NCBI GenBank assembly: GCA_973851085.1
Contig: OZ316776.1
Span: 9,052,001 to 9,116,000, forward strand
DNA: 64,000 nt
DNA from: Ptychomitrium polyphyllum
Lineage: Eukaryota
Direction: 5' to 3'
Shown here: positions 1 to 36,833 of the stretch, piece by piece
How positions within the stretch are numbered: the first letter of the stretch is position 1
Layout of the letters: every line of letters starts with the position of its first letter
The notes under the pieces: model-generated
Database searches by the model: none
The model's input: only the letters and a program-made list of their open reading frames with translations
Told to the model about the DNA's origin: nothing
Made by a program: the position numbers and the translations under genes

Positions 1-195
1 CGACCGGAGTGACACAAGGAAATACAGGGGAGACAGGGGATACAGAGTCGGGACGCGATAGGGGACGGCGAGGGGCTTCAAGCGGGGGCCAGCCCGAATC
101 GCAGAGGAGCCTTGGCTCGGAGGATAGTTAGTGACGAGAGCTGAGCGCACGATTTGTCTCGCGAGAACGGGACTTTTGCAGCTGTTTGGTTAGAT

Positions 196-8700: not shown

Positions 8701-8802
8701 CCCGAGCCTTCCAATCTCTCGTGTCCGGCTCCACAACCCGGGGCGTGGGCGGCTGCGGCAAATCCCTAGGCTCCCTCCGACTCCAGTCGTCCTCCCCGCC
8801 AG
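545..8802. repeat. Inverted repeat; arms 545-2720 and 6627-8802 (2,176 bp each)
   Basis: The arm ends mirror exactly (545+8802 = 2720+6627). ORF-track translations in several frames are identical on both arms. Identity breaks at ctggcggggagg (5' side) and just before the stop codon (agc tga versus agt tga). Confidence 0.93.
2930..6633. repeat. Direct duplication 2930-4730 / 4831-6633 across a 100-N gap (4731-4830); probably an unmerged contig overlap
   Basis: Identical ORFs recur at an offset of 1903. The few differences I saw are small indels close to the start of the second contig. Confidence 0.9.
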
Positions 8803-9127
8803 GGCCAGCCGTCAAACCTTCAATCCCCGAGTTTACCAGCTCCTCCGGCGCTTCCGTGCACGCCTCCCGAAACTGCAACAGTCGATCCCTCGCATACCGA
8901 ATCCTCTCATGCGAACTCCTGACCGGCCTCTCAGCCGCCCGCATCACAAACTTACTCGTCGCAAAATTAGGGTTCGGTGTCGACTCGTCATGAAACGCAG
9001 TCTTGGTTCCATTCTGATTCGGTACACTATATGGCCGGAACGACAGAGATCTACCACCTCCTCCGGGACGCAAGGACACAGACGGAGGGGCACTCTGTGA
9101 GGAAGGCGGCGGCGCGGTGGCATCCAT
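6623..9127 (-). CDS. eIF(iso)4G: Translation initiation factor eIF(iso)4G, copy B (intronless CDS, 834 aa from ATG 9127)
   Basis: Starts MDATAPPPSS; eIF4E-binding-type motif RIRYARDRLL; MIF4G and MA3 domains identical to copy A. Confidence 0.95.
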   Translation of the reverse strand: MDATAPPPSSQSAPPSVSLRPGGGGRSLSFRPYSVPNQNGTKTAFHDESTPNPNFATSKFVMRAAERPVRSSHERIRYARDRLLQFREACTEAPEELVNSGIEGLTAGPGGEDDWSRREPRDLPQPPTPRVVEPDTRDWKARAPAPAPAPAQEERSSSREQQRDRNPKQRNERSERGERGDNRGPREQANSAQAQRQAESAPAGPPPAIVKAANPWSARRGAQSEKEKVYRTVKGILNKLTPEKYDLLAEQMMQAGISSAEILQGVISLIFDKAVLEPTFCAMYAQLCVQLSKELPEFPAEQAGEKPITFRRVLLNTCQEEFEGADALREEIKKLTKPEQAVERDEKEKRVKLRTLGNIKLIGELFKQKMLPEKIVHACIQELLGQDPKATPAEENVEALCHLFTTVGKQLEESAKSKMAFDTYFARLKAIGESRGLPSRIRFMVRDILDMRSNKWVPRREEMKAKTINEIHAEAEAKLGLRPGMMALRNGRAPALPGFTPGAGGMMPGMPGMPGMPGGAMPGAPMMGSFLGPGLEADGWETVSTARRSRKDSTGVLPMPGGGSIGGMGSGAMPGAPGGGQARFGSPSMRAGGVGARVLPQGSGGYGFMGKPSALLGTGPPKSVAEVPKAAEAVKEVARPAPAAAAAAAAAAPSADLTKKSESLLKEYFSIVDLNEAALCVQELKSAAFHPELVRLAIATALDMREKECSLVLKLLAHLQSKGVVSSSEVRGGVLLVAEGLEDMAMDAPLAPKRLGGMIAGLVLAGACELVLVEEATAKVEDEVLQKDVVKAVVDTLKSKENEVQLGEVCGSASVDKEGLLSVTVGSDLAKLFS

Positions 9128-11776
9128 AGCTGGGCGACAGCAGAGAAAAAAAGAAACACACAACGGCAGCCACAGAGCACAAGAAGCCACTCTCCCTCTC
9201 TCTCTCTCGGTCGCTCTCTCTGCACGGAGCCGGAGACCCTGCCCTTCCAAGTTCCCCTCTCACTGTCCCTCAAGTCCCTCGAACTTGTTTCCCGTCTTCG
9301 TCTAAGCTACTCAACCATGTGCAGCCGGGCTGCCCGCCAAGTCTGGCTTGCTTACCAACTTGGCTTGTGCCTCTGCTAAGCCTGCCGGACCGGTTCCGAG
9401 TCGTCTATGCGGAGCCCCTGAGTCGGCCTCGTCGCCGCTGCCCCTTCTCACTGCCGGAACCAAGTCACCTGTGAAACCATCGACTAACTTAACCTAGGGC
9501 TGATGAGATCACCTGCCTGGGCACTGCCGCATTGACCTTAGGACCGTAGAAACGGATTTTAGATGTGAGACGATACGGTATTGCGAGGTTCTGGGAATTG
9601 GTACGCCAGCATGTGCTGGCTCGTCATTAGGGGTTTGATATTGTGTTTTTATGTTATCTAACAGACGCGAGTTACGCTTGGTTTGATTTTCATAAAAATT
9701 GTTGAAGTGGGCAGAGTTAATTTTGGATGAATAATGTATAGTGTTTGGATTGGAGTGCAATTCACGAGGCTGTTTTTGGAATGCTTGTTGAAAAAAATAA
9801 AGTAGGTTCTTAGTGTATTAACTTGTAATACTATTGGATAATATATTATATTTTTGTTATGAAGTTATTATAATTTATCATGGTTTATATGTATAAGGTT
9901 TAAAACTTGAACATAATTGGATAATAATATGAATAATAACATGTATTTTTCTTTGGATTATTTATATTTGTTTTTACTTATGCCTTGTGCATCTTGAAAA
10001 GTATCTGAAATCTTTCATTATATATAAAATTATTTTATTACAACTTTTCATTATGAAAATTAATTATAGACTTATATTTTATATTCTTCTATCACAATGT
10101 ATATCTTTATTTAGAGATAATAATGGCTAAGATTTTAATTTTCTAAAGAATTTCGTATTTTTTATTAATAAGTTTTTTTTATATGATTTTAAAATCAAAC
10201 TAAATCTTATGTTATTAAAGTTTTAGTTAAAAACTTGAAATTTTTTAATCATACATTAAAATAGAATTTAAACTTCTTATACAAGTTTTACATTCATTAG
10301 CATCAATTACAGCAAGCAATGTTAAAAATTTAGGATTAATTCTAAGTTCACAATTCAAGCAAAACATTTTGTGACATAATAAAAAACCATATATCTTCAT
10401 GCATCTTTTGGTATTACAAAGGTATGTTTAGTACATGAGATTTAATTAAAGTGATATATATTAGTTGTAGGCAATATTTATGAAATTAGTTGGAATATTA
10501 TGAAGTTGACAAAGAAGTCTAATGATTCAATATTACCAAAAGATGATTCTAATAACTAAAGTAAATTTGACTCATCCCATTTTGTCTCTTAGAATTCCAA
10601 CATAATGCCATATTCCCTTTAACATATTCTTGATTCACATTCACTACAAGACACTTATACTTTAGAATAGTAATTGTGAATGGTGCATAAATTATGGCCT
10701 CCATGTTTGAAAGGAATCTCAAATATGTATATTGACCTACTGTTCACAAAGTTCACTACATTTTTACATTTTTACATTTTTACATTCAAAGGAAGACCTA
10801 AAAATGACATCTTCACAAATAACTAGGTCATTTGATCACGCTCAGAATCTGCCTATGAGCGTTGCTTCGCCAACCGAAGCCCTTCGAGGACATCTGAAGC
10901 GTGTTTGCTTCGACGACAGAGCTGGTGTTCAGAAGTGATGCTGTAACCTAATTGCAACGCCGCGCAGATGCCGGGCCGGGTTGCACCGTTTCACGACCAT
11001 CGCGGGTTGGATCGGCATGTAATCCTAACGGGTTCCAGCAGACGAATAACGGGCCCTTTTTCCACGAAGCTCAACTCGCCCTTGACATGAAGCTGGGGAA
11101 ACTTGCCAGTTCCACTATCCTAGTGATACCTAGGCTATACTCAGCCGATACTAGTGCAATTTAGGTGCAATTCTCTGGCGGGTATTTTCTTTCTCTCTCC
11201 TCTTTCCTCCTCACTTAGGGGGCAGTTCGGGGAAGCTTGCATTACTCCAAAACTATACTCTCTCTAGACCGGTACTGCATCCGAAACGGGCACTATCGAA
11301 TACTGCTAAATTAAATTCTAGAAAATGTAGAGAATGTCGGTTGCAGCTTCTGTGACACATATCGGACACCACCTTTGTCTTTTTTGGAATTTATAACGTG
11401 CATCGAAGGTTTATGTCCGTTTTGGGTGCAGTGACGTTGTTGTGTTTCCAATTTAATTCGGTTTATATCTGCATGATACACAGCAGATACTAGTGTAGTG
11501 CCCCGGTGATATTTAGGCGGGTGTGTTGTCCTTCTCTGCTCTCTGGTTATGATCTCGCTCCTCTTTTTGAGTGAGAACAAAGTCTCAGAGCTCATATTAA
11601 AGAGCGCAAGGCGAGCGCGAGGTGAGGGCGAGAGTGACCGATTGCGGAGCGGTTGCGTATCCGTGTTCTGTTCGAATGTGGAAGTTTGTCTTTTTGGAGT
11701 GGGTGTTGTAGAGGGGAAAAAGAAGAGGTTTGGAGTTGGTTTTGTCCTCAGTTTGGTTGCTGGGAGGGTTTGAGTG

Positions 11777-18595: not shown

Positions 18596-21500
18596 ATGAC
18601 TACTCGATTTCTACCAATACTGACCTTCCTTCACCTGCTCATGCAACCATGGGGCGTTCTTGGACTCTTACCAGACATGGCTGCTCTCTTGGCATTCAAA
18701 AAAAGGTTAACGTTTCTTGGCATCCCTGGTTCACTGTTGGATTGGGTGAAGTCGGATCTCACTCCAGTACCAGTGGACCGGCACGCAGTGCAACACAAGA
18801 GTCATTTGCCTTTTTCTCCCCTAACTCAGCCTCTCTGGCACTAAGTCACAGCTCTTCCCAGCTCTTCACAGTCACAACGTTGCAGCACCTAGCCCGTAGT
18901 ACCAACCTCCTCACTGGTTCCTTACTCCTGTCACTCTTCACCCTTATTAATCTAGAGTATCTTGATTTTAGCTTTTTTGGCCTCTCAGATTGGCAGTTTA
19001 CTGGTGCTTCAGGAAATCCGGGTTGGCATAAATGTATTCCTCCTCAGTTGCAGATCTAGTTAACCTTATTTACCTTGAACTTTGCGTTGATAATCTCACT
19101 GGCGAGATTCAGCCATGGCCTCTTCATCGCAGCTGGAGCGCCTTGTTCTTTCCGGAAACCTGTTGTCGGGTTCCATTTCGCCTTCCCTGGCCACTCTGTC
19201 CAACTTGTCTGTTATAGACTTGAGTAACAATATCTCATTGGTACCATTCCTGTTGATACCGTCAAGATGATGCTTGGTTGAGCTGGACTTAGGGGTTGAG
19301 CTGGACTTAGGGGTTAACCTTCGCACAGGAACCCTGCCCTAGGAGATGGGATACCTCATCAATATGAGGAATATTCCTCTGGGACTCACCAAGCGCACGG
19401 GTCCTATCCCTGCAGAAACATCTCTTATGGGCAACTTGCAAAAGCTCGATCTTGGGGGTACAACCTTGTCTGGTCCTATTCCTGACTCAATTGGGAATCT
19501 GAAGAATCTGGCGATGTTGAATCTGTCATGTACAAGGTTGAATGGTTTTTTACCTGCTTCTCTCGGCCAGTGTCCGAGGTTACAGGTACCTTCCTTCTGC
19601 AATTTTATCAAATTTTCTCTTTTGTTGTTGATGTTTTCTTTGATGTAGGTAAGTGGGGTGCATCTCTTCTAAGATGTATTATACATGTGGAGACAAGCAA
19701 AAATATCAAGATTATAATCTTGCTTCATGTTCTTTCGGTCTTATCTCCAATGTCCATGGCTGGTCACATATCTCGAGTAGACTGATACGCGGTGTTCCCT
19801 TGCCAGGTCTTTGATGTTGCATTCAAGCAACTAAGCAGCACTATTCCTGAAGAGCTTGCTGCTCATGAGAACGTCTACTTGCTTGCTTGATGCTGCTCTG
19901 TTGAGGGAAATCACTTGTCCTATACCAACCTGGTTCGGCAATTGGCGAAACCACTCGTCTCTGCATATGAGAACCAACCACTTCTCCGGCGCCATTCTTC
20001 CTCAGCTGGAACTATGTCCAAACCTGAAGAATCTTGGCCTAGACAGCAACTTGTTGTCAGGCTCCATCCCTCCAGATTTTTGTTAGGCTCCCTTGAAGAC
20101 TTTGTCGTTGAATGACCTCAAGCTCACAGGGAACATCACTCACGCCTTGAAAGCTTGCAAAAGTATCCAAGAACTCGACCTCAACACGAATATGCTCTCC
20201 GGACCCATACCTACTTATTTCGGTACTTTTCCCAACTTTGAGATGAGAAACAGGTTTTCTGGTGGTTTGCCTGACGCTCTGAGGAGCTCCAAGTCTCTAC
20301 TTCAGTTTCAGACGGACAGAAACAACCTCATCGAGACTGTCTCCTTTGGTTGGAAGACTCCCCTCTCTCGCGTATTTTATGTTTTTTGGGGGCCTTTGTG
20401 AGGGGCAGCTCCCTTCCCAACTAGGAGACCTCTCCAACCTCAACGTCTTCTCTACGCAAGGAAACAGGTTCACTGGAACTATCCCAACTCACAACGCTCA
20501 ACCTTGGACGCAACGCCTTCACAGGTACCATCCGCACGAAATTGGACAGTTTGTCAATCTTAACAATCTAGTTTTAAGAGAAAAATAGGCTCACACGAAG
20601 CATTCCCCTTGAAATTCAAAACGATTTTCACGTAACCTGACTACAACATCGGCTTCACCTTCCTCGTTTTTTGCTACCTCTTTCATACCATGCAGAGGCA
20701 TGGATATGATGTTGAACAATTGATATTTGCTCTGTTTCAGGTACTCCCCATGCCGGACAACGTCATTTCTACAACATCGCGGCATATTAGACTTCTCATG
20801 GAACAGCCTCAATGGAAGCATCCCTGCAGCTCATGCACAAAGCACAATGACAATAGAGCTGCTCCTGACAGGCAACCAGTTCACCGGCACTATAACTCCG
20901 GGGCTAGCTAGGCTTGTAAATCTCACCTCTCTAGACCTCTCGAGAAATTTCCTCAACGGCACCATCCCAGCTGATGGGTGACTCACACGCAATCCAGGGC
21001 CTTAATCTCGCCTACAACGAGCTCTCAGGCGCGCATCCCTAACAAGCTCGGCAGCAATCCCAGCCTTGCATTGCTGACCCTAACAGGCAACATGCTCAAT
21101 GGGCCGCTACCTGCTACTCTCGGTAACTTGACGGGGTTGGTTGGTCTGGATGCGAGTTGGTAACCGGCTCAGCGGCGACATACCTCCATCTCTGGGGAAT
21201 CTTGCGTCCATAGTGGGGTTGAACTTGGCGAATAATAAGTTAACTGGCAGTATTGCAAGGTTGCTCTCAGAGCGCACAGTATGGCATCAAGCGCAATAAC
21301 TCAACCTGAGTTTCATCTTTCCGGACCCCTGCTTGCTGGCATCGGAATCCTGACTGGCTTAACAGTTCTTGATCTTCGGCACAACTATTTTACTGGTCAC
21401 ATTCGGAGGGCGCATCCCCAACACCGGGAGTAGCGTTAACTAGAAAACCTCATCCTTTCCTTTAAACTCAAACGTTTGCGGAGAGGGTTTGAAAAACAAA

Positions 21501-22023: not shown

Positions 22024-25000
22024 CTAGAACTGATGATCTAGCTTGAGTAGATAAGATTCGACGAGTGCAAGGTTTTGAGGGCATTCAAAGCGCATGTAGA
22101 GAACCGGGCAATCAGAGTTAGTACAAAGAACAGACTGAAAATGCCCCCCCGAATGACACCTCGCACATTCCGCATGAGCTCCAGCTAACTTCATCTCCTG
22201 CTCAGCCATCTCGTGAAATATAGTAGTTGCTGCTTTCTGTGCATGACCTGCCAGAGTACACTCTTGACAAAGAGCTCCTTGCTCATTTTCCAGCGGTTTT
22301 CTGTGCAGAAACAATCAACGTCAAAGATTGTTCCACTTCCTGATTTAACTTTGGCAATTCTGTACTCGTTAAGAACATATTCCAGCTTCAAAAAGTCACC
22401 AGCCGAAGTATACAGATGATCATGACCACAACGGAAAGAAGCTTGTGATGAGGTGAAAAAAAGGACTGGTAGTAGATGTTGATCATCATACCTGCAAATC
22501 AGACAAAGTGTCTTGGGTCGAAAGAAGCTACTAACTAAACCCTGTGACCGGTTTGATGCACCCACATGTACAGACGGAGGAGGGGCAGTATGACTGCCAG
22601 TAAATAATTCCCTCAATGTTGAAGGATCTGTGACAAACTCCAGTATCTGTTTATCAAAAAAATACAGTATCACGATAAGAAACAAACTATAAAGCTATTT
22701 TTTCTGGAAAAGAACTAGCACGTAGAGTGTTCACTTGATACCCTAATAGAAATTGAGATACATCTACAGCTAGACCTACCTCCAGCAACGACTGCAAGGA
22801 AGCTACATTGCGGCCAACATGAATCTCATCACCAAGTCAGCGTTGCTGATTGCAACTCCACTCGTTGAATGCAATGTTCCTAAAAAGCATAAAAGCGGTT
22901 TACAAAAGTAACAAACAGCAAATGCAGGTCAAAGCAATCGTACAGATTCCAGAGGCTTGCGGAGTTTGTTCTCAAGATACACGTGTGTATTCACCGGAAT
23001 GCCTCCAATAAGAGCATCAATTGGATCTTGCGCCATATCATCCTGCCAGCTGGAGTAAGAGAAAGTTCTAGATCTAGCAGATTTATTCTCTTCTGATAAA
23101 TCTCAACCACAAGAACTGCAAACAACCTAAGTTATGATTGCACTAGCTTCACCAAAAAGTCTTCTATAAAAAGAAGCAATTTTTAGCCAGCCCTTACTAT
23201 AGATTACTTCAGTATGTTCGTTAAGATGAGAGTTCTTGGATCGACTGATGCACCTGAAGTTTGTTTGAGTTAGCCATGAGAACATAAGGTACTCTCTCTC
23301 CAATATGAAATTGCCGATCAGGATCTTTTCGTTTCAACCTCACAGAAAGAGCCACATGAGGGCCTCGCCCTTCTTCTGCAGTTGATGCCCCCACATGCTT
23401 GTTGAGACCCTTCGTCACTGCAGCCAACTTTGTAATATCGTTGTCATCGACCCGCCAGAGACCCTGCATCAGCTCGTTTAATGACATCGTTAACCACCTG
23501 AACAACATCGACACAAAGTGGGACTAAATTGGAAAGCATGAATAGGCAGCTGAGCTCTCATTTCTAGAAATTTCCTTTTCTCCTAATGGATTCAGTTACA
23601 GATAGGCATCAAGCAAGCAACTTTCATCAAAAGGGGTCATTTTAAGCAAATATCATTTCATTACCTATACTGCAATGAAATTGAGAAAAAAGTCACCAAC
23701 GAGGGTTTTCAGTTCAAATGATCAATGACAAGCCTTACTCCTGTCATTATATATTCAGATAAGCTCCCTTTGCCTGCCATCACTCGTCGTATCGAATTCT
23801 TGCAGTTTTCCAAAGCACGTGATACGTCATTTTCGACAAGGATGTCATATAATGCCTGTTTGCAGATTTGTCGGACAAATCTGGGCACATCTCGTCTTTC
23901 AGCTTCGATACCCTTTACGAATAATGTTCCTTGCCCTTGATTTGCCTCGCTGCTAGTGTGCTGTTTTCCAGCGTACCTATTGACCTGCTCGTACGTCAAG
24001 TGTCAAGCGTCAACGAATTTAACATGTGAAAGAAATTAAATACCTCTTCACATTCATCTTTTTAAAATATTGAGAAACTAAAAGTGCATCTACTTTGAGT
24101 ATGGATATCGAAGGGCAGAAAAACCGGCCTGGAGGAGAAGAAAAGGACAGAGAACCTGCAATATGAAATTTGTTCAGACATCAGCAAGTTGTCATAACGT
24201 GCATGACCATCCCAAAACAGCACTGAAATCTTCATCACAAATTGCTAACAAAAGCTAGATATAACATCTTCGCTACATTCTCTTCATGATTGTACATCGA
24301 GACTATCAAAAGGTCAAAATTGTAGGAATTCTGAAGTCACCCTTTCAAACTTGAGAACAATGGGAGAAGGAAAGGCTTGAGAGACGATCTCAGCAGCTTG
24401 AGTGCCCAGTTTGATAGCTTCATCAATGCTGGAACCTTTGAAGCAAACAAAAACACTGTCGGTCTGTGCATAAATGACCTGCGCATTTTCGGAGATACTG
24501 CCAGCAAGCTGCACAGCTTGCTTACATGATTCGGCCCCCATGCTGCAATAAGCGAATGTATCACATGAACAATGTAAGTATGAATAAGACACTAAATATC
24601 AAAGTTCAACCAAGTCCTGAATTTTTGGAAAAAGTTTATTCAGTTGACATGTCTCTGCTTGGAACTGCCTTCGGCCAGTCTTCCGATTGTTTTATGCACT
24701 GCAGAAAGCCCAGCATTCATACCCAACTAGTACCTATGCCTCAAATTCTAACCCAGTAGAATGGTACGACGACATAAGAAATCTCTTATGAAAGTGGCTT
24801 GAACCTGCATCACTTCAACCGATTACCATGATTCTCACACATCTTGAGACAACATGAGCTTAAGCACAATTGCACTTTAATAGTGTGCAGACAGTTTCAA
24901 ATATTACCTCAAGCAAGAGTCCGCTAATGGAAGTGCCTGTTGAGGTGATGCACTCGCACCTGTGAATCCATACAAAGCATTTGAGCAGAGCTGCAAAAAC

Positions 25001-28000
25001 AATGCAGACCTCATTTAGTGCATGTAGCCTGTCTAAACTAGTGGAGAATGACAATGTAGATGGTAATCTTTTGAAACAATCTGCTATAACAGGTCACCAC
25101 AACACCAAATAGAGATTTTATAGTTGCACCTTCAGCGCCTTCTGCCTCCCATCCAGCACAGCATGCTCTTCAGGACTAATACTCTGCTTGGCCATACGGT
25201 CTCTAGCTTGTTTTCGTGCTGTGATCAAAGCACCTACGAGGAAATTAAAGTTATCAATGTGCACAAGAACATAATTGCTTAGTATGAACGGAACGTGTTT
25301 TTTCGCAGAACACTACTTTTAGCGTTAAATGCCAATCCCTACCGTCTTGTCAAAACAGGAAAGGTTACAGTTTGCTTGTGAATGATCGCTACTGATCAAC
25401 AGTAGAAGATGACAAGGTTGATATTGTCTGAGCTTCAGCAAGCTCTAGAGCAACTAAGAGAATAGGAAATTGAAAAGTCGTACAACGATCATGAGGCCTC
25501 ATAACAGGGCTTTGATTGGAAACTAATGCTTCTATAGAGTAAGCTCATACCACAAATGCGGGGCAAAACACCTCGACGCACCGATGCCACTACAAATTGT
25601 GCACCAGTCGGGCTAGAGCATCCACCCATCGGCCATCCAAAGGCAAACCGTTGAAACTCATCAGATAGTTGAGCATCACAAATTCAATCAATTGGAGCCT
25701 CAGATATAAATTCAAATTTACTGACTAAAGGACAAATTTCCACGTATGTAGAGAGGTTTCAGGTGACAGCGGTAGGAAATTGTTCAACAAGTCAGATGCA
25801 GGGCTATCCAGAACAATAGAACAAGCACGAGGTTTTAGTGAAGACACCGTCCTTATCTATCCACAAAAACTCCAATAGGTGGTCGAAGAGAATTCCAAAA
25901 CTTACCTTGTTGTTAAATGATGAGCAGGCATTGTTTTCGCATCCTCGGGATGTACCAACGTTGTGTAACACCTGATCATCAAAGGAATTCTAAAAAACAC
26001 CGTGTTCTAAAATTCCTAGAGAACTAATTAACATGGCAACATCGAATCCAAAACCGACAAGGCTCAAGTTTCAGGCAACAAACACGAATTCATTTCATTC
26101 TAAGCTGTGAGTCAATTTCAGAATCCAAATCTGAAAGAACGAGTTGCTCAGGACTTACAGGTTGTAGGCCATGAATAATGATGGGTAAAGCGAAGCAAAA
26201 TCCAAAACTGCGATGGGGTCCTGAATGTAGAACATCTCAAGTCACCAATAAGGAAGGTTTCTCTACAGCTTGCATGAACACTCAGGCACTTACATAGCTC
26301 ATCTGCTTCGTTAACTTCATATGTTATCAACAGCAACACAACAAGCATTATGGAGCCAAAGCTGGTGTTGTTTCTGAAACTTGAGAGCACCACTTTCGTG
26401 GGTCAAATACCTGATAAAACCCGGCAGTACGATTCTCTTTTGGATGTAGCAGAAAAGGGCTCTCTGATAGTTGGCCTGTATCATAAAGTCACCAGACAGA
26501 GACTTTAGGAGATATGGATCAACATGGGCAAATTGTGCATGCAATGTCGTACAATTGTTGAAGGATATCTTGGCATCAACGTTACCATGAAGCCAGCATG
26601 ATGCATAAAAAACCCATTTATCAAAACTATGCTTCTACACATTCCAAGGCTACAAGAATTATGTCCATATATAAATACCTTTCTCTTATAAGGTTGAAAA
26701 TTTCTAGAACATAAAACTTACCGTTCAAAGTTGTTCCTCCCAGAAGCCAACCTTCCCTACGCGCACTTCGTAGAAGCAGGCTCTAAGACGACAAAGAAAT
26801 CAGCACTTATGCAATAATCAGTAGCCTCTATAACTACTAAAGCGAAATAACAATAGAAATTATCCAAAATATAGGATCATGAATCAATGAGACAGTCCAC
26901 TTACTTGGACTCGCACCATTTGAGCTTTGTAGAGGACATCAGAAAGTGTCAGCCCAGTAACTCTTGCCATCTCCACTGTCTCTGGAACAGTTTGCAACCT
27001 CTCCATAAGTTTAAGAGCAATCTGTCAGGCATAGTGTCAAACATGAATCAATATGTGCAAGCGTTCACAAATACCACAGATTAATTACTTTTGCGAATAC
27101 ACGGAATACACGAATCGGAAGCAAGCACACCATAATCAGTGTGTTGAAGAAGCATCTCAAATAGTCTTCCTTTGTAATCTGGATCATTCAAAGTAAAGGA
27201 CTTTCTTTTCTTAAATCGGGGTTCTAATTGAGCAGAGAAATGATCAAATGCCCACCTCAGCTTCATGGAGAGAGTATAACAGAAGTCGACTAAGACCCCC
27301 ATGCTTGCCTTGCCAAAGCTCCGACACTGCAGCACTTGAAAGCACCTCTTTCGGAGTTCCTAGAAACAACTGTCCCCATCTAATGCAACGCTATTCAAGT
27401 ACTGGGGTTTGCATGGTAGCCAACAAGCAACTTAAAACCTAGGGTCTTCAGATACATAAGTAGGAAATCTGAGAAGTACAACTGCTCCTGACAACTACAA
27501 CGGCCAAGGACCAGTAATATCTTGAACAAAATTTCGAAGAAATCTACTAAAAGCATTTAACTAAACGCGCAGGCATTTAAATAGAGGTGCACCTAAACGA
27601 CTATGATCCTCGTACTTGAGTAAGGAAAAGCTGCACTCTTAGAGAGTGCGGCGTCAGTTGCGAAATGCAGATTAGAAGACACATACAAACCAGTCAAAGA
27701 AATATCAAGCACTTCACAAATTGGCAAAAGCAAGTTCACCTGAGAACACTCCCCCAGAGTGAAGGTGGAGAGGTTAAACGACACCAGCACAACTCGGAGC
27801 ATGTCAATAACTAATCTTCCCTCTACGTAGGCCCTAAATACCTCCTGATTCGAAGTTGATGACATACGAGCCTGCTGCCTTACCCAATGTTTTCCATAAG
27901 TCACAACTGATTTCACCTGCAGAATTCACAGGTAACACATTCAGAGTCACCATACGGTCAACTTCACCATACTCTCGATCAAGATCTAACCCTGCCATTA

Positions 28001-31000
28001 TTATGACATATTGTTAGTGTGCTAAATGAACATGAGGAATGTCTATACCTCAGTTGTTTGTCCCTTACGTCGACCAATATCAAAAGCTCCCAGCTTTAGG
28101 ACCTTAAAACGTTCTGCCATATACCGCAAGCTCTCCTTCATTTGATACACACAAACTACATCCGGATCGATCTCCCAATAGAAAAACTCACGCCATGCTG
28201 TTAGCATGGCTATTTCAGAGTCGAATTCCCGTACTTCAATTCCTGGCAGTGCCCCTTGCTGAGAACTCTTGCCATAAGTAAAAACAACCTGCCTTATCCT
28301 ATCTCGATCCCCCAGACAGCGAAGAATATGAGATATCACAAGCACCGGATCCCTTGATGGAATTGCAGAGCCTCCACTTGCTAGATTGCTGAGGCCCTCA
28401 ATGTCAGTAACACTAGCTTCCTCATCGCCAGGAAAACCTGATTTGATTTCTCCACTAGCCCTACTTTTTGTAGTCAGCTTGACGAGAGATTCAGATTTTC
28501 CTCTGCCTCTACCTCTACCTCTACCTCTTCCTGCTTTAACAGTCGAACCACTGCTGCTTTCCTTAGTTCCAGTCAACACTTTCCCACCACCAGAACACTG
28601 TACATGTAAGGAGACTATCCGTAATGGGGCGATTAGATTCCAAGTAGCCTCCCCAGATATTGAAGGCAAAGAAGGTCCGCTACCACTTGAAGAAGTGATT
28701 AGGCTTGGCTCCTCCCATGTGCAGATATTACTTTTAATCTGAGTGAATTCAGGGAGGTCCTCCGCATCTGGAGTAGATGTGTCACTCTGGTCGTCCATGT
28801 CCAAAATAATTTCTCGACTCCGTTGCGTACCAAAATCCTCACTGTTATTCAGGACAGTTGATGCATTTGCAGCTGATTCCGTGAACTCCATGTGATGTGT
28901 CGCATCTGGGGTTAATCCAACGAGATTCCGCCAGCATGCAGCCAGCTCTTTGGAGCACCTCGTCTTCTGTTGATCATGCGGAATTGGTTTAGCCTGCTTG
29001 ATTTCCACCCAAGAGCCTCCTGCCATTGCTGTATCACAAAAGAATCGCATGCCCAACTGCCCAAGCAAGTAACTATCATGTGGATAGAATGTTCAGGAAA
29101 ATGAAAATTGAGAATAAGAAAACACATGTTTCAGCTCAACTCTCATGCGATTACCGCTATCAAAGCATAACTGCCATAGATATCGAAAGTTTTACACGTC
29201 AAAATAGCTAATGGCGAAAATATACATGGCGAAAATGTACATGACAAACGTGGATTTCATCAAACAATATCAAGGACAAGAAAGCCAGATTCATCTCGTT
29301 AGTTCAGAGGTGCCAATGGAGAATGGAAAAAACCTATCAATTACATACAAGATACTCGAATTATATAGATAGGCACTAACTTTGATGCCCTCTTCATGAG
29401 AAGTGTGATCCTTCCAGACGAGGCCTTCGGATTGCATCTCGTTCTCCTCAGCTAGTGCCGTCAGCTCCTTCGAAACTACACCAATGTCTTTACCCCTCCA
29501 TACTTCCACCTACATCATGAAGTCAGATATAGGAGTAAGTTTACAAGCAAATCATGTCCACAAAAGACATATATTTCCTTCCTGTTCTCAAACTATTCCT
29601 CTTTAAAACCCGCACGAACACAACATCCAAGGCAATAGAAACAAACCTTTAGGAACAAAAAGGGTCCCCCACGACGGTAATACATAAGCGGAGTCCTGTA
29701 TTCTACTGTAATTGCGGCAACCTGCAAGAGCACAACACTTGTATGAACGAACACAAGTAACCCAGACATGACCTGATACGGTTTGCATGAAACTCGCGAA
29801 CGCCTGCAACTGCATGCTAATTAAATGCAAGTTGAGATCCCTCAGATGATTAGAACTTCTGCAGAAATAACAGTCCAAAAAAAAACCATTTAATGAATTG
29901 GTCTTTGTTCATTGAGCTGTTTTCAGTCGCTTAGAAATAAAATCTGTTTCAAAAGTACCAAAACAACGAAAAACTCCTGTTGGAAGTCAAGATATCTTAC
30001 AAACTGATCGCTGGAGCCACCAGTTTTCTTACGGCTGGCCAGCACTTTTTGATTAAGATGCTCTTTAACGGTGTCCAAGCTGCCTTCATTTAAGGGCACT
30101 TCCTTCCCATCAACTTTACACACAGGAGCTGGAAACCAGAAATAAGGTACATAATCTGCACCGCCAACCGATTTATGGTAATTTCTCTGTTCCAAAGTTT
30201 TGTTACAACTCAAGAAAATCTAAGAAGCAAATCAAAAAACAGCATATACTTGTGTAAATGTGCTTATCTTCAACATTTATCTTGACCAATAGACCACCAC
30301 AAGCATCAAGTGCTGTAGAACAATCTCCAAGCTGCAGATAGCCTTCTAAGGAATTCAAAGTTCAGACATGGAGTATAATAGCGCTTCTGAGCTAAAGCTC
30401 GACACGGTGCAACAAAGACGGGCAGCTCAGCACAAAGCTATGTCACTGATGACAATTAAACCAAGATAGTAATTCTAATTGGAATGACTGCACCCACTGC
30501 TTTCATTATTCTAAACGACTATTGGCTAGCCTGACGTCCAAGCATTACTTCAGAGGCACCAACCATTTACGTGAACTGCAATGCTTTCACCATCCGATTT
30601 CAACCCGTAGAGAAGCACCTGCTCCACATACACACAAAAAAAAGAAGCAGAATAAGCTTCCCCATTATTATTGTTTCAGCTGTACGCCTCACGATTGACT
30701 CACATCCATCATATGGCGTATTCCCAAGATGCCAAGATGCCAAGATAGTCAGACACCATGGCAAAAAATTACGGCACACACACCAACCTAACAACGAAAC
30801 CAAAGCCTGACACCAAAAGCATCCCTGAAAGATTCGAAGGATCCTTCCTTTGGCATAAGAAACACTCGATCCATCAAAAACATCCCGGAATCCAATGCTC
30901 CCTGAGCGACTAAATAACATCTTCAAGGGCAGACTTCAAGCTCATACAAGGCCACTGTAAGAACTCCCCACAGTAAAAGTCTCCGGAAAAAATTAATGAT

Positions 31001-31097
31001 GTTGGCTTGTACGCACAGAAGGCGCAGTAGCGGATGCAGAAGCCGGGGCGTCGGTGAAGACGGCGTCCAGCAGCATCATCCGCACCGGTTCGGCCAT
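22024..31097 (-). CDS. Divergent family-B DNA polymerase, paralog of the Pol delta catalytic subunit (about 20 exons; exonuclease motifs degenerate)
   Basis: Motif A DPIAVLDFASLYPSLFMAYNL (~26160-26220); motif B RQKALK|LCSNALYGFTGA (~24950-25150); motif C IYAQTDSVFV (24455-24472); VKGIEAERRD; GERVPYVL; C-terminal CLIC..CQEC and CARC..LCTNSDCPVLY. Likely start MAEPVRMMLLD at 31097, preceded by an in-frame stop. The N-terminal exons are less certain. Confidence 0.88.
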
Positions 31098-31344: not shown

Positions 31345-31418
31345 CCATCGCCATCGCCATCGCCATCGCCATCGCCATCGCCATCGCCGTCGCCATCGCC
31401 ATCGCCGTCGCCATCGCC
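31345..31418. repeat. (GCCATC)n hexamer microsatellite with GCCGTC variants, upstream of the polymerase gene
   Basis: About 12 units read directly from the sequence. Confidence 0.9.
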
Positions 31419-34179
31419 GCCACTCCCCGCCTGCTGAGAGGTTCCGCTGCAATTGAACCCAGTCCCCCAACTGGCTGTTTTGCATTCATTTCATTAAGCA
31501 ACAATGCTACACGTCCATGGTCTTTGTGTTTGAGTGTGTGTTGCTTTGCTTACGACCACGTTTTAGTCCCCAACCATGCGTTTTCGATGCTCAAAGCATC
31601 GAAGGATGGTGCAGAGTTAGCATTTGAATCTTAACTTTATTGGATTTCCTTCAGTTTGTGAAGGATTGAATATGCTTGATTTGTGCACCGCTGAACATGC
31701 CAATCTCATCGCGGGTGGCAATCTCCCTTCTTTAGAATTTGTGTTAAAGGATGCACACCAAAAATCAAATCAAAACAAAAGATACGCCGGGCACATGTTT
31801 TTGTCTGTGTCTTTTTGATATAATAAAGAAAAATTGAGTAATATTGTGACATATGTATGTGACTTATTACTTCCTCCAAAATTCCCGTTTTATTTTCATG
31901 CCACAATTAATTGATGAAAGTTGTTTTTGTGTTAAAGTTAGAACAAAGAATTTGGACCAAAATTTAATATTTCAAATGAAACTTATGACAATGTTGCTAG
32001 TTACAATTAGGTGTGAATTGAAGGAAGTGTAACATGGTTTATTTGGAAGTTGCTCTACAATTGGAAGAGTACAAAGGTTGAGTATTATTTTATGGATTGA
32101 AAACTTGAAAGTTTATTTTGTGCAACTTTTTAATTTGAAAATATTATTGTAAAAAAGCCAAAGATAAACAATTAAATGTTGTTTTTAATAAAGAAGTTGT
32201 AGAAATATGCAATAGAAAGAAAAGTTTGTATATAAGTTAATTTGCAATTGATGTTGTAATTGGCTAGAAATTAGTGTTGTAGGTTGAAGTTTGACAAAAA
32301 AAATTATAAGCTATTTAAAAGTTGGAAGAATGGAAGGTGGAGATTTTCACAAGTAGTATCAATTTTTAATATGTGCAATGTAGCTATAGGCTCTAGCATT
32401 CTATTTTTTCATTAAGCATTCTAATTGTCTTGTTTTCTTTTAAAAATACTCCAAATGATAATAGAATTATACTAAATGTAGATGCAAATGTCTTTAGATT
32501 TATTATAGCTGATATGTTCTTATAGTCTTATTAGTATAAAAATAGAATATTGCACATAATGAAGTCAAATGCGCAAGATGCAATTTGAACTTGGCTATTG
32601 ATACAAGATGCTTTATCCATGTACCTTTTAAATAATTAGAAAATGAGGTTTTTTTTTATAAAAAAAGAGTTAAATTACTTGTTTTATTAAATATTTGTTA
32701 TAAAAGTTTTAATATTTAAAATTATTACTAGTAAATATTGCATTTCAAAAAATTAATACTATAAGATAATTTTTGCAACTATTATAGTACTTTCCACATT
32801 TATATAGCAAAAGCATCAATTGCATGGAAATTTTTGCATTTTGGTTTTTAAATAATGTCCCTTATTAATATTAGGATTACACTTCTAAATCGTAGTTGTT
32901 TGTTCAAAGAATGGATACTTATTTTTGAAAATATTAAATTTAATATGCAAGTTTAAGAAGTCTCTTCAATGTATTTTTTTGGATGTAAATAAATAAACTT
33001 AATTTATTAAATTTCATTCATCATTATTATATGGTTCATAAAAACTGTAATTCTATAATTCTTAATTGAGGAAATTGAAAAATATAAAATTAAGTGATAT
33101 CAGGTAAATAATTATTTTTCTTCACTCCAAATTGTTTAATAAAATTTTTTTTTTTTTTTTTTGTTTGGAACAATTTCCAAGATCTATAAACTACTAATCT
33201 TTCATGCACAATTTGTCAATTATGTGCATTTTTTTATCAATTTTGTGATTTCTAAGACATTTTCAAAGCATAAGAGATTTTTAGCAAAACTCACATATAA
33301 CCACATGAATCACTTTACTAGCTTCTATAGAATTAAAGCTCTTTTTTAATGTTCATTTTTATAAATTTTACAACTTCACCATCATTACAATGACAACTTT
33401 TAAACTTAATTTCTCTTTTCTATGATCAATCTTGGACAATATATCAGAATAATTTTAAATAAGTTTTGTAGATAGACACTATTGATTTGAGCTTTCTTAG
33501 CATGTAAGGATTTTGATGAATTTTTGGTGGATTTGCACAAAAATTACTTTGAATTTTGCAAGGACCATACATACATTGCACATTGCCATAGTTTAATTTC
33601 AAACAATTACTACTCAAGTATTTGTGGATTTTAAATATTGAATCTATCAATAAATTTTGCTATTTGAATGAAGGTACAATCCTTTCAAAAATATCACAAT
33701 GCATGTAACTCTACAAGATATTTAAATATAAGTTATTACTACATATCATTTAAAAATAATTATAATTTAAGGACCCTCATTTTTAGTTAAGTTAAACATT
33801 GAAAGTACTCAATATGAAACACACAAATCAAAATGGAACAAAGTTCACCATCTATTCTATCTTGTACTTTTGCATGACCACCTAAAAATAAGTGCATTTG
33901 ACACATCTATGGAATACACCTTGCCACACTAATCTGAATGTATCCTTATAAACTCATGCCTATACTATCAAATCACCAATCAGAGTTGCACAATATGAGA
34001 TACAAAGCTCAAATGATTAAAACCAGGTGAAACTCAAAAACCCCTCTAACCTTCTAAACAAACACACCATAAAAAGAGTAAAAAGAGTCATCTTCCAGGT
34101 AGCAACACCCATAACCATACGGAAACCAAACGTGGTAACCATCAACAAAAACAATACTCTTGGAAACCAAGCTCCTACA

Positions 34180-34682: not shown

Positions 34683-36833
34683 CTAGCAGGCGCTCTTGGG
34701 AACGCAGTAGAGGGGCCCGGCGTCTTGTGTCATGGCGGGCACCCACGAGACGTGGCGAGGCACGAAGCTGCGAGCTCTGTCGTAGTTGCTGGCTGACGCG
34801 TTCTGCACTCCGGAGCCAGTGAAGAAGGCACCGTTTGCGAAGCTGTCGCCAGTGGATGTCCAGTCCCACTTTTGCCATCCGCCGAACGTGGGTCCATCGT
34901 CGTCGATCCGGGACGTCACCTAGAAGTGAACAATGGCGTGCGAGAATAAGGAGACAATCTGGGTTGACCCCCACGTTCGACCGGAGATGTAGGATGAGTT
35001 TGTTACCTCTTTCCGGTTGCTGGCGTCAGGGGCAATGAATTGGTTGCATTGGCTCAAAAAAGTTGGATCCTCGCTTCCACCGATGGCGTATGAGCCCCAC
35101 CCTGAGGTGTAGAAATTGTTGGCCACATGGCAGTTTCCGTAGCGACATCTGCAAAAGAAGTGAGGCTCATCAGTACCCTGGAATCGGAGTTCAAGTTTAC
35201 ATTCATTGTTTCTACAAAAACAGAGCCGGTTGCGAGGAACAAATTCACATCATTCAGCATCGAACATCATGAGTGTTTCAGAGAAAAGCGAATGCTCACC
35301 TGGGCATTCTCTGGGTAAGCCCAGGTCCAAATTTGTTGAAGGCTACTGTAATCTGCATGTTTCTGTCGTAGTCATCCTTGGGACTCGCCCCGAACAGCAT
35401 CACCTGAAAAGAACATCAACAAGTTCATTAAGAGGATATGTTTCATGAAGATGCAGAAAATTTTTGGAGGGATTGATGATCAGAGTGGCCAAGCCCCACC
35501 TTGTTGTGATTCTCGAAGTAGCAGTTTGAGACGGTAATGTTGGTAGAGTTTTTCGTTGCATCGATCAAGCCATCGGTCGACTTCGACAGAAAGCAATGGT
35601 CAACCCAAACATTGACCGAATTTTTTATGTGAATGGCGTCGCCATCGCTAGAGCCACGGAATGTTCGAAGGTTCGGCGCGGTGAGGATGTGGTGAGGGCC
35701 TGAGGGGAGAATGTCGAGGACATAGATTCCATGGATGATAACGTTGGAGACCCCCTCGATGGTGATTTGGGAGGTGCCCACGAGGTGAATTTCTGCGCCG
35801 CGCCCGTCGATGGTCTTGTAGCTCGACATGACAAGCTCGCCTCTGAGCTCGATAGTCATGTTCTTGATGAAGATGATCCACAAGGGCTCCGTGCGGGTGG
35901 CGCCGTAGCGCAGGGTCCCGGGGGCAGGGTTGTCGATGTCGTCGTCGTTGCTAGTGACGACGTAGAGCATCCCGTTCTTGCCTCCGAAGGCATGTTGTCC
36001 AAATCCAACTGCACACGATGCGAGCGCTTGACGACGGTCCTGCCAGTTGGGATCGCAGCGCCAGCAATCGTCAATGTAGTTCCCTGTTTTGCATGACCCC
36101 TGACTTCTAGGTTTCTGAAATGGCATTAAGAGTTGTGGCTCTTCTGCAGCCTCATCAACGTCGACATTCTCTTGCTGATCTCTACAATCACCATGAAATC
36201 AGTGCCAGATGATAAGATAACACCTCTGGAACTGTCAAAGTCTAGAATTCCTGAAGGGCTGTGACATCTCTCAATTGTGTAATCATTCCAGAATGACTCT
36301 GTTAACTCGGTAAAAATCTGGATGCCAACCAGTCGAGCCAATCCGTAGTTAAGATGTACACTGTTGATGATTCTTAATAAAATCGTCTGGAGCGTCCGAA
36401 ATAAGATAATCAATGGAAAAAACTATGAAAACAATACTTGATGAGGACTGATTTGAAAGATGAGGAAAAATCAGGCACTGTTGTTGGACACTTACTCTCG
36501 ATACTCTGCGGTGTAAATGAATCCTGCGTCTGAGGTATTGATGAACTTTTCTGGTGCTTCGAGGTCGAGTTCATTAGACTCGTACTCTTGATTCTTGTCA
36601 CCAGCTGGTGCTACTCTTGGGTAGTCCAGGAGGTTGGCAATGGATTGAAGGAAAGCTCTCAAATTCGTGACCAAAGTGGCTTTTGGGATAAGAAGGTCCT
36701 TAGTAGGAATGGTTGCAACGTTGGTACCGATGTTGTTGTTTAGAATCTGATTCGATGAATGAGCTTCACAATGTTGGAAGACTAACAGGAGGATGGCAAG
36801 AACAAGGAGATAGTGAGCTGCCGTATTCGCCAT
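34683..36833 (-). CDS. Pectate lyase (PL1 family), secreted; about 5 exons
   Basis: Signal peptide [74 protein letters not shown] and YAIGGS motifs; last exon VTSRIDDDG...[10 protein letters not shown]. Confidence 0.93.

What the first reader, a model, noticed from the sequence alone, without database searches (positions are those of the whole stretch)
27256..28612. All three 3'-5' exonuclease motifs have lost their carboxylates while the fold-defining context is kept
Seen: IAPLRIVSLHVQCS (28595-28612; D to H and E to Q), EIDPDVVCVYQMKESLRYMAER (FD lost) and RLLLYSLHEAE (27256-27276; D to E). The flanking residues still align with POLD1. Established: Pol alpha and Pol zeta keep a dead exonuclease domain as a structural module. 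Inference: an independent loss of proofreading within the delta lineage rather than random decay.
Basis: partly seen in the sequence, partly recalled or inferred. Interest (0 to 1): 0.7.

Follow-up and report, generated by a model that had tools for sequence, protein, structure and literature searches.

The report
Ancient proofreading-dead twin of polymerase delta
This moss gene encodes a second version of DNA polymerase delta that has lost its proofreading residues but kept its copying residues, belongs to a family shared by green algae, ferns, some fungi and some stramenopiles, and likely works as an overlooked DNA-repair polymerase that may be as old as eukaryotes.

Summary
The three degenerate exonuclease motifs lie in an intact 23-exon, 1209-aa gene (minus strand, 31097-22024) that is spliced in related mosses. 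It is not the replicative Pol delta: Physcomitrium carries both this gene (78.5% identical) and a canonical POLD1. The gene belongs to one clade (100/100) of exonuclease-dead Pol delta paralogs in chlorophytes, streptophyte algae, mosses, a lycophyte, ferns, stramenopiles and early-branching fungi. The clade is marked by a conserved ~10-aa insert in the exonuclease beta-hairpin. Separate duplications in plants or in fungi are rejected (AU p 1e-39; 2e-4). All 43 members scored keep the catalytic Asp/Lys/Asn/Tyr. The green and pelagophyte branch also swapped the first motif-C Asp and the KKRY Lys together (60 of 60); most green members carry a canonical PIP box. The probable Physcomitrium ortholog is induced 5.5-fold by bleomycin. 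Best reading: a PCNA-tethered, non-proofreading repair or extender polymerase, like Pol zeta or archaeal Dpo2; activity is untested. Ten paper searches found it only listed as 'POLD subunit 1b'. This scan earlier noted what is probably the fungal branch (e1-7219585); the link across supergroups is new here.

The parts
22024..31097 (-). Whole gene: 23 coding exons, 1209 aa, no internal stop; exonuclease-dead Pol delta paralog
   Evidence: Exon model from tblastn with P0001/P0003 and splice signals; 18 of 22 introns appear among the listed joints of RNA contigs of related mosses
28049..29056 (-). Exon 6 (1008 nt): end of the N-terminal domain, two low-complexity inserts, ExoI and ExoII
   Evidence: the matching inserts have pLDDT under 50 in the ortholog model
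28598..28606 (-). ExoI remnant H-V-Q in place of D-I-E
28496..28531 (-). RG dipeptide repeat in the insert after ExoI (seen in the two mosses, variable length)
   Evidence: length variants in related mosses (table 4)
28109..28174 (-). ExoII region: catalytic Asp replaced by Ser, one residue deleted
   Evidence: 0 of 43 family members have Asp in this column
27842..27898 (-). Family signature: conserved ~10-aa insert at the tip of the exonuclease-domain beta-hairpin (Y-x3-W-V...R-M-x2-T-S-N), predicted to add a short helix
   Evidence: 73 of 298 proteins match it and none of them has intact ExoI plus ExoII; helix 469-474 in model mc3563f38adc7
27256..27288 (-). ExoIII region: Asp replaced by Glu
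26441..26470 (-). E-S-P-F in place of the Y-E-G-A motif before motif A
26179..26202 (-). Polymerase motif A (DFASLYPS), catalytic Asp and steric-gate Tyr intact
   Evidence: 43 of 43 family members
24967..25132 (-). Motif B (K-x3-N-x2-Y-G) intact, split by intron 15
   Evidence: 43 of 43
24455..24472 (-). Motif C, YAQTDS: first Asp replaced by Gln, catalytic second Asp kept
23967..24131 (-). V-N-R-Y in place of K-K-R-Y; the preceding Gln codon ends exon 18, followed by a GC-donor intron
   Evidence: junction seen in RNA contigs X1, X7 and X9
23452..23747 (-). Thumb motif: Lys of T-K-x-L replaced by Gly, conserved W-R added; split by intron 19
22521..22544 (-). Canonical PIP-box pattern Q-x2-V-x2-F-F just before CysA
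   Evidence: 21 of 27 green-clade members, 0 of 16 other family members, 0 of 34 canonical POLD1 by the strict pattern
22258..22505 (-). CysA four-cysteine motif, split by intron 22
22108..22167 (-). CysB four-cysteine motif (Fe-S cluster and B-subunit binding in Pol delta and zeta)
   Evidence: PF14260 on the fern ortholog

Best explanation
The gene encodes a conserved paralog of the Pol delta catalytic subunit that has lost its proofreading residues and likely acts as a PCNA-tethered repair polymerase, which would extend mismatched, damaged or displaced primer ends that the replicase hands to its exonuclease. Shown: intact gene, Pol delta fold (predicted), incomplete exonuclease site in every member scored, invariant dNTP- and metal-binding residues, retained Cys motifs, coexistence with POLD1, and one clade across plants, stramenopiles and fungi. 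Inferred, in order: (1) it still polymerises; (2) it binds POLD2/POLD3 through CysB and PCNA through the PIP box; (3) the dead exonuclease domain is kept as a platform for the enlarged beta-hairpin, which has taken on a new DNA-handling role at the template or displaced strand; (4) in the green and pelagophyte branch, the paired Asp-to-Gln/His and Lys-to-Asn changes remove the minor-groove check just behind the primer end, so that distorted ends stay in the polymerase site; (5) it is used after DNA damage; (6) it arose by duplication at or before the split of fungi from plants and stramenopiles, and was lost in animals, budding yeast and seed plants.
For: Gene and splicing. Both paralog and canonical POLD1 in Physcomitrium, Micractinium sp. 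CCAP 211/92 and Auxenochlorella protothecoides. Exonuclease; no protein of 298 has both the insert and intact ExoI plus ExoII. Motif A Asp and Tyr, motif B Lys, Asn and Tyr, and the second motif C Asp are kept in 43 of 43 members across fungi, stramenopiles and plants, which is hard to explain without catalysis or nucleotide binding. Covariation: of 275 proteins with both columns filled (298 aligned), all 60 with Gln/His at the first motif-C position have Asn at the KKRY Lys, and none of 215 with Asp has Asn; this is probably one evolutionary event, not 60. The Lys (K814 in yeast Pol delta) contacts the base at n-2 (PMC4333401, passages). Precedents for active enzymes lacking the first Asp: archaeal Dpo2, exonuclease-free, a mismatch extender (PMC8764526, passages and Discussion) and damage-induced (PMC7390963, abstract); piPolB, which also lacks KxY (PMC5695915, passages). 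Model: pLDDT 87.6, pTM 0.87; Pol delta the top five Foldseek hits, TM 0.83-0.89 by target length. Expression: Pp3c17_18800 up 5.5-fold with bleomycin (1438 against 301 reads), Rev3 4.0-fold, while Pp3c6_19160 is absent from that file (PMC4990234, Table 1 passage and supplement 1 rows); it is in the gamma-ray, SOG1-dependent cluster 8 (PMC8711748, section 2.7). Tree with the hairpin columns removed: family 100/100; AU tests.
Against: No activity was measured. Replacing the KKRY Lys almost abolishes synthesis in RB69 gp43 and cripples phi29 and Pol epsilon, and mutating the first motif-C Asp greatly reduces Pol alpha and viral enzymes. The moss protein has both changes and has also lost the thumb Lys; 18 of 27 green members also replace the R839-equivalent with Trp. 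Canonical '1a' is in cluster 8 too, so gamma induction is not specific. No SOG1 motif lies within 2.3 kb upstream of this gene. These mosses already have Pol zeta, Pol eta and Rev1, so a second extender looks redundant. The PIP box is absent outside the green clade and CysB is not matched in the 9 stramenopile or unplaced members. The Asp-Lys contact in solved structures is recalled and was not found in the papers read. Family branches are long, and the only outgroup was one viral-type PolB.
Confidence: 0.55

Rival explanations
1. It is an active polymerase specialised for strand displacement or recombination-associated synthesis (D-loop extension, long gap filling), with the enlarged hairpin as a wedge, and not a mismatch extender.
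For: The oldest shared change is the hairpin insert, among the best-conserved stretches (87.5% to Physcomitrium, 81% to Adiantum, 66% to Klebsormidium). The hairpin has been proposed to act as a wedge between strands (PMC4333401). The fungal clade keeps YGDTDS and R-K-R-Y, so the ancestral enzyme had normal primer sensing. Induction was by a double-strand-break agent. That exonuclease-dead Pol delta displaces strands more readily is recalled.
Against: It does not explain the paired Asp/Lys change in the green branch. No assay. The insert could equally bind a partner protein.
Confidence: 0.18
2. In the green and pelagophyte branch it is a pseudo-enzyme: it binds dNTP, primer ends, PCNA or POLD2 as a sensor, scaffold or competitor but makes little DNA.
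For: Loss of both KKRY lysines, the first motif-C Asp, the thumb Lys and the YEGA motif; single changes at these sites cripple other PolBs.
Against: All six chemistry residues are invariant in 43 of 43 members. Dpo2 was called inactive on similar grounds and proved active. In Pol epsilon the Lys mutant degrades the primer at physiological dNTP and synthesises at 1 mM, so part of the defect is transfer to an exonuclease site that is incomplete here.
Confidence: 0.15
3. It works on an unusual substrate: RNA primers or templates, very short primers, or de novo priming as in piPolB.
For: piPolB shows the same pair of motif changes in kind (first Asp lost, KxY replaced) and primes de novo. Nearly every duplex-contacting motif is remodelled here, whereas the dNTP site is not.
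Against: piPolB replaces KxY with extra lysines, whereas this family removes them. The steric-gate Tyr is kept. A PIP box suits a pre-formed primer end.
Confidence: 0.07
4. [quoted passage not shown]
For: Patchy distribution; two named fungal carriers are chytrid-like and one is an algal parasite (lifestyle recalled); long branches and uneven composition flagged; a second exonuclease-dead group without the insert (5 sequences, including Polykrikos) joins next to the family (99/95), showing that such copies can arise or attract.
Against: The insert has the same position, length and sequence in fungi, Platysulcus, pelagophytes and plants and was left out of the tree. The fungal clade holds Gonapodya, Rhizophlyctis, Paraphysoderma, Saitoella and Savitreella and is not nested among algae. 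The green subtree follows species order. No viral or prokaryotic locus with the insert among 159 fetched.
Confidence: 0.3
5. It is this moss's own replicative Pol delta, or a decaying recent duplicate.
For: Databases name the orthologs 'DNA polymerase delta catalytic subunit'. The window's own genome was not available to show its POLD1.
Against: Only 35% identical to Physcomitrium POLD1 but 78.5% to the Physcomitrium paralog. A green-plant duplication is rejected (p 1e-39). Open frame over 23 exons; conserved from mosses to chlorophytes.
Confidence: 0.01

Closest known systems
Pol delta catalytic subunit (POLD1/Pol3)
   Same: Domain order, predicted fold, motifs A and B, catalytic Asp of motif C, CysA/CysB; best profile and structure match.
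   Different: Incomplete exonuclease site; ~10-aa hairpin insert; YEGA replaced; in the green and pelagophyte branch first motif-C Asp and KKRY lysines replaced; strict PIP box in greens; separate clade; coexists with POLD1.
Pol zeta catalytic subunit (REV3)
   Same: Exonuclease-dead B-family subunit with a Cys-rich C-terminus; proposed extender role; damage-induced in moss. A Pro at the YEGA position is shared with yeast Rev3.
   Different: Much lower score (494 against 873 bits); yeast Rev3 keeps YGDTDS and KKRY; REV3_N matched 1 of 20 members, far below its cut-off; no large Rev3 insertion; Physcomitrium has its own REV3.
Archaeal PolB2 (Sulfolobus Dpo2)
   Same: No exonuclease, first motif-C Asp lost, once thought inactive, damage-induced mismatch extender.
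   Different: Different PolB clade (recalled from, and consistent with, passages of PMC7544198); motif C is HxxxD; resemblance is convergent.
piPolB of pipolins
   Same: First motif-C Asp lost and KxY replaced, yet active.
   Different: Keeps proofreading, has TPR1/TPR2 subdomains and extra lysines, is encoded by mobile elements.
Pol alpha catalytic subunit
   Same: Dead exonuclease domain kept as a structural module.
   Different: 299 bits against 873 for Pol delta; priming role tied to primase.

Membership tests
B-family DNA polymerase | PF00136 plus PF03104 and motifs A, B, C | tested here: met
   (20 of 20 PF00136, 18 of 20 PF03104)
B-family DNA polymerase | Template-directed DNA synthesis | not testable with these tools
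   Needs purified enzyme
Pol delta (POLD1 orthologs) | Intact ExoI D-x-E, ExoII D, ExoIII D | tested here: not met
   window has H, Q, S, E
Pol delta (POLD1 orthologs) | YGDTDS and KKRY | tested here: not met
   YAQTDS and VNRY
Pol delta (POLD1 orthologs) | Branches with POLD1 of its own lineage | tested here: not met
   AU p 1.3e-39, LG+G4; tree
Pol delta (POLD1 orthologs) | CysA and CysB C-terminal motifs | tested here: met
Pol delta (POLD1 orthologs) | Binds POLD2/POLD3 and PCNA | not tested
   Motifs present; no complex was predicted
Pol zeta (REV3) | Inactivated exonuclease | tested here: met
Pol zeta (REV3) | REV3_N domain, large insertion, closer to Rev3 than to Pol3 | tested here: not met
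Pol zeta (REV3) | Position relative to Rev3 in a tree | not tested
   No Rev3 sequence was held as a stored protein; only profile scores were compared
Archaeal PolB2 / piPolB | Prokaryotic or mobile-element gene without the eukaryotic Cys-rich C-terminus | tested here: not met
New hairpin-insert Pol delta paralog family | Insert present, exonuclease incomplete, one clade | tested here: met

The most novel reading that the evidence does not exclude
[quoted passage not shown] In plants and algae it then rebuilt its primer-binding surface.
Probability: 0.45. Interest if true: 0.92.

Novelty: new variant of a known kind. Interest (0 to 1): 0.8.

Why it matters
Reviews list four nuclear B-family polymerases in eukaryotes (PMC7544198, passages). 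A fifth, ancient, conserved one would change the reconstruction of the ancestral replication and repair kit. It would add an unknown route for mutagenesis or recombination in green algae, mosses, ferns and early fungi. It is directly testable: Physcomitrium allows targeted knockouts, and the probable gene is already in published damage-response data under the wrong label. It is also a natural test of whether a PolB can work without both the first motif-C Asp and the KKRY lysines. On the practical side, these proteins are annotated as POLD1 and can mislead ortholog sets.

Tried and rejected
No whole genome is held for this window, so its own POLD1 and REV3 were not seen. The protein atlas gave no answer in 5 tries and the VIA structural alignment none in 4, so there is no residue-level superposition; only Foldseek scores were obtained. 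No RNA run of this species was found: the RNA contigs are from relatives at mostly 90-95% identity and cannot show level or strand. A SOG1 motif scan found 31 sites against 25.4 expected and none within 2.3 kb upstream. Viral or prokaryotic origin: 0 of 159 loci carry the insert, 6 of them without a scorable ORF; 8 of 80 metagenome loci do. Pol zeta affinity: the family profile scores Rev3 no higher than a canonical profile does (494 against 513 bits). Literature: searches for a description of the family found none; some searches were for mechanism. Passages read in PMC6801657, PMC6369806, PMC6680887, PMC12680538, PMC3564110 and bioRxiv 10.1101/2025.09.02.673565 do not mention such a paralog; their supplements were not read, and those of PMC7544198 and PMC12680538 may hold these sequences in trees. 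A yeast Pol delta structure paper was not held. Sequence look-ups in earlier scan notes with P0071 and P0243 returned nothing. Rows dropped: 32 of 298 too short for the FastTree run; the mixture tree used 58 chosen rows, the AU tests 37 and 27. No complex was predicted, because a pass would follow from likeness to solved Pol delta.
Full report
The gene. The finding lies in a spliced gene on the minus strand of a moss-like eukaryote. tblastn with the Physcomitrium and Adiantum hits and splice signals gave 23 coding exons from 31097 to 22024, 1209 aa, with no internal stop. All introns are GT-AG except intron 18, which has a GC donor. RNA contigs of related mosses, mostly 90-95% identical, join the exons at 18 of the 22 introns among the rows shown (the first table was cut). 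One contig reproduces 23200-28700 without a difference and may be the window's source.

The observation. ExoI reads H-V-Q, ExoII has Ser for Asp with a one-residue deletion, and ExoIII has Glu for Asp. In an alignment of 43 family members, 34 canonical POLD1, 6 other divergent copies and one outgroup, 33 of 34 canonical proteins keep all four ligands. No scoreable family member keeps more than two, and none has the ExoII Asp. The replacements vary: the first ExoI Asp survives in 18 of 27 green-clade proteins and the ExoIII Asp in 4 of 7 fungal-clade ones. An acidic residue often sits one place before the lost ExoII Asp; by helix register it occupies the Phe position, but I could not check this on coordinates.

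Not the replicase. The protein is 78.5% identical to a Physcomitrium protein and 35% to a second, canonical Physcomitrium POLD1. Two chlorophytes also show both genes. Profile scores against solved structures are 873 bits for human Pol delta, 494 for yeast Rev3 and 299 for Pol alpha. An AlphaFold2 model of the fern ortholog from 66 family sequences has pLDDT 87.6 and pTM 0.87, and its top five Foldseek matches are Pol delta. A model of the moss ortholog agrees.

Range. Named members come from trebouxiophytes, chlorophyceans, ulvophytes, Chlorokybus, Klebsormidium, Closterium, Physcomitrium, Diphasiastrum, Adiantum and Ceratopteris. Outside green plants they come from the pelagophyte Chrysophaeum and the stramenopile Platysulcus, and from the fungi Gonapodya, Rhizophlyctis, Paraphysoderma, Saitoella and Savitreella. 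No seed-plant, liverwort, Sphagnum or animal member appeared among the 67, 120 (of 291) and 150 proteins listed, although canonical POLD1 of those groups did. For seed plants this is fair evidence of loss, since a close ortholog of the fern query would rank near the top; for the others it is weak, and many hits are unnamed.

One origin. All branches share an insert of about 10 residues at the tip of the exonuclease-domain beta-hairpin, with conserved Tyr, Trp, Arg-Met and Thr-Ser/Asn-Asn. Of 298 proteins in hand, 73 match it and 190 have intact ExoI and ExoII; none has both. With the hairpin columns removed, a site-mixture tree of 58 rows and 594 columns separates 28 family members from everything else at 100/100, and the green subtree follows species order. 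Trees that hold the fungal copies with fungal POLD1 (p 7e-6 under LG+G4; p 2e-4 under the mixture) or the green copies with green POLD1 (p 1e-39) are rejected. Branches are long and the outgroup is a single viral-type PolB, so the position of the family relative to Rev3 and to the root of POLD1 is not settled. An origin at the base of eukaryotes is the simplest reading; early transfer is not excluded. A second group of five exonuclease-dead copies, including one from Polykrikos, lacks the insert and lies next to the family in the tree.

The polymerase site. The two catalytic Asp, the steric-gate Tyr and the motif B Lys, Asn and Tyr are present in 43 of 43 members. Surfaces that hold the primer-template have changed in two steps. 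All branches replaced the YEGA motif and enlarged the hairpin. The green and pelagophyte branch then changed the first motif-C Asp to Gln or His, KKRY to V-N-R-Y and the thumb Lys to a small residue; the fungal clade keeps Asp and Lys, and Platysulcus is intermediate. The Asp and Lys changes go together in 60 of 60 cases, probably from one event. The Lys touches the base two steps behind the primer end, and its loss harms replicative enzymes (PMC4333401, passages). That the Asp pairs with it is recalled. Dpo2 and piPolB show that a PolB can be fully active without the first Asp, and piPolB without KxY.

Partners. CysA and CysB are kept in this gene and in 23 and 24 of 27 green-clade members. 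A strict PIP-box pattern precedes CysA in 21 of 27 and in 0 of 34 canonical proteins. I infer binding to the Pol delta small subunits and to PCNA; neither was tested.

Expression. Kamisugi 2016 lists Pp3c17_18800, 'DNA polymerase B: delta subunit', as 5.5-fold up after bleomycin, with Rev3 at 4.0-fold; the gene listed elsewhere as subunit 1a is not in that file (PMC4990234, table passage and supplement 1 rows). Sakamoto 2021 lists it as POLD subunit 1b in the gamma-induced, SOG1-dependent cluster, with 1a, Rev3, Rev1 and Pol eta (PMC8711748, section 2.7 and supplement rows).

Mechanism. Most likely the enzyme is loaded on PCNA with POLD2/POLD3 after damage and extends primer ends that POLD1 would move to its exonuclease. 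The dead exonuclease domain would be kept to present the enlarged hairpin to the template or a displaced strand. Mismatch extension (0.55 for the whole statement), strand displacement (0.18), pseudo-enzyme (0.15) and unusual substrates (0.07) are the functional options; the first two could both hold. Nothing here measures activity.

Novelty. Ten library searches found no description of the family; it appears only as a table entry under the name POLD. Subscription journals and most supplements were not seen. It is probably the fungal branch found here, but I could not compare its sequence. I class the finding as a new variant of a known kind, interest 0.8: a candidate fifth nuclear B-family polymerase, testable in Physcomitrium.

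Noticed in passing
window 145-2724 (+) and 6623-9259 (-): Two long eIF(iso)4G-like ORFs (name from recalled motifs, not searched) face each other and share a perfect 2181-nt inverted repeat, 545-2725 with 6622-8802, while their 5' ends differ: recent inverted duplication, gene conversion or an assembly artefact.
   Followed up: partly
window 31163-31098 (-): An in-frame upstream ATG is followed by TAA at codon 5; the stretch resembles the 16-aa N-terminal extension of the Physcomitrium ortholog, so this moss seems to have lost the extension and to start at 31097.
   Followed up: partly
window 24128-23985 (-): Intron 18 has a GC donor after a 27-nt exon; the junction is spliced in RNA contigs of relatives.
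   Followed up: yes
window about 31345-31420: A (GCCATC)n-type microsatellite lies 250-320 nt upstream of the start codon.
   Followed up: no
P0238, P0245, P0249, P0301, P0315; P0267; L087:3001-5610: Further exonuclease-dead Pol delta-like proteins without the hairpin insert, with intact YGDTDS and mostly KKRY; P0249 is from the dinoflagellate Polykrikos. Possibly separate losses of proofreading or a deeper sister group.
   Followed up: partly
P0124: A family member is predicted as a fusion with an N-terminal endonuclease/exonuclease/phosphatase domain (PF03372); it may be a gene-model merge, but if real it would tie the family to base-excision repair.
   Followed up: no
L081:3001-5952 and L087: Eukaryotic-type Pol delta genes with the Cys-rich C-terminus sit on contigs of bacterial MAGs, most likely contamination.
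   Followed up: partly
L162, L164, L180, L210: Unnamed metagenome loci related to the family keep YGDTDS; L162, L164 and L180 carry the insert, and L180 and L210 keep K-K-R-Y, close to the expected ancestral state. They were not placed in the tree.
   Followed up: partly
PMC8711748 Table 1: Physcomitrium has a third gene listed as POLD subunit 1c (Pp3c27_3350), in a different expression cluster; it was not identified among my hits.
   Followed up: no
window 35443-36198 (-) and about 20000-21500 (-): Neighbours look like a pectate lyase exon upstream and a leucine-rich-repeat receptor-like gene downstream (read by eye); no functional link is apparent.
   Followed up: no
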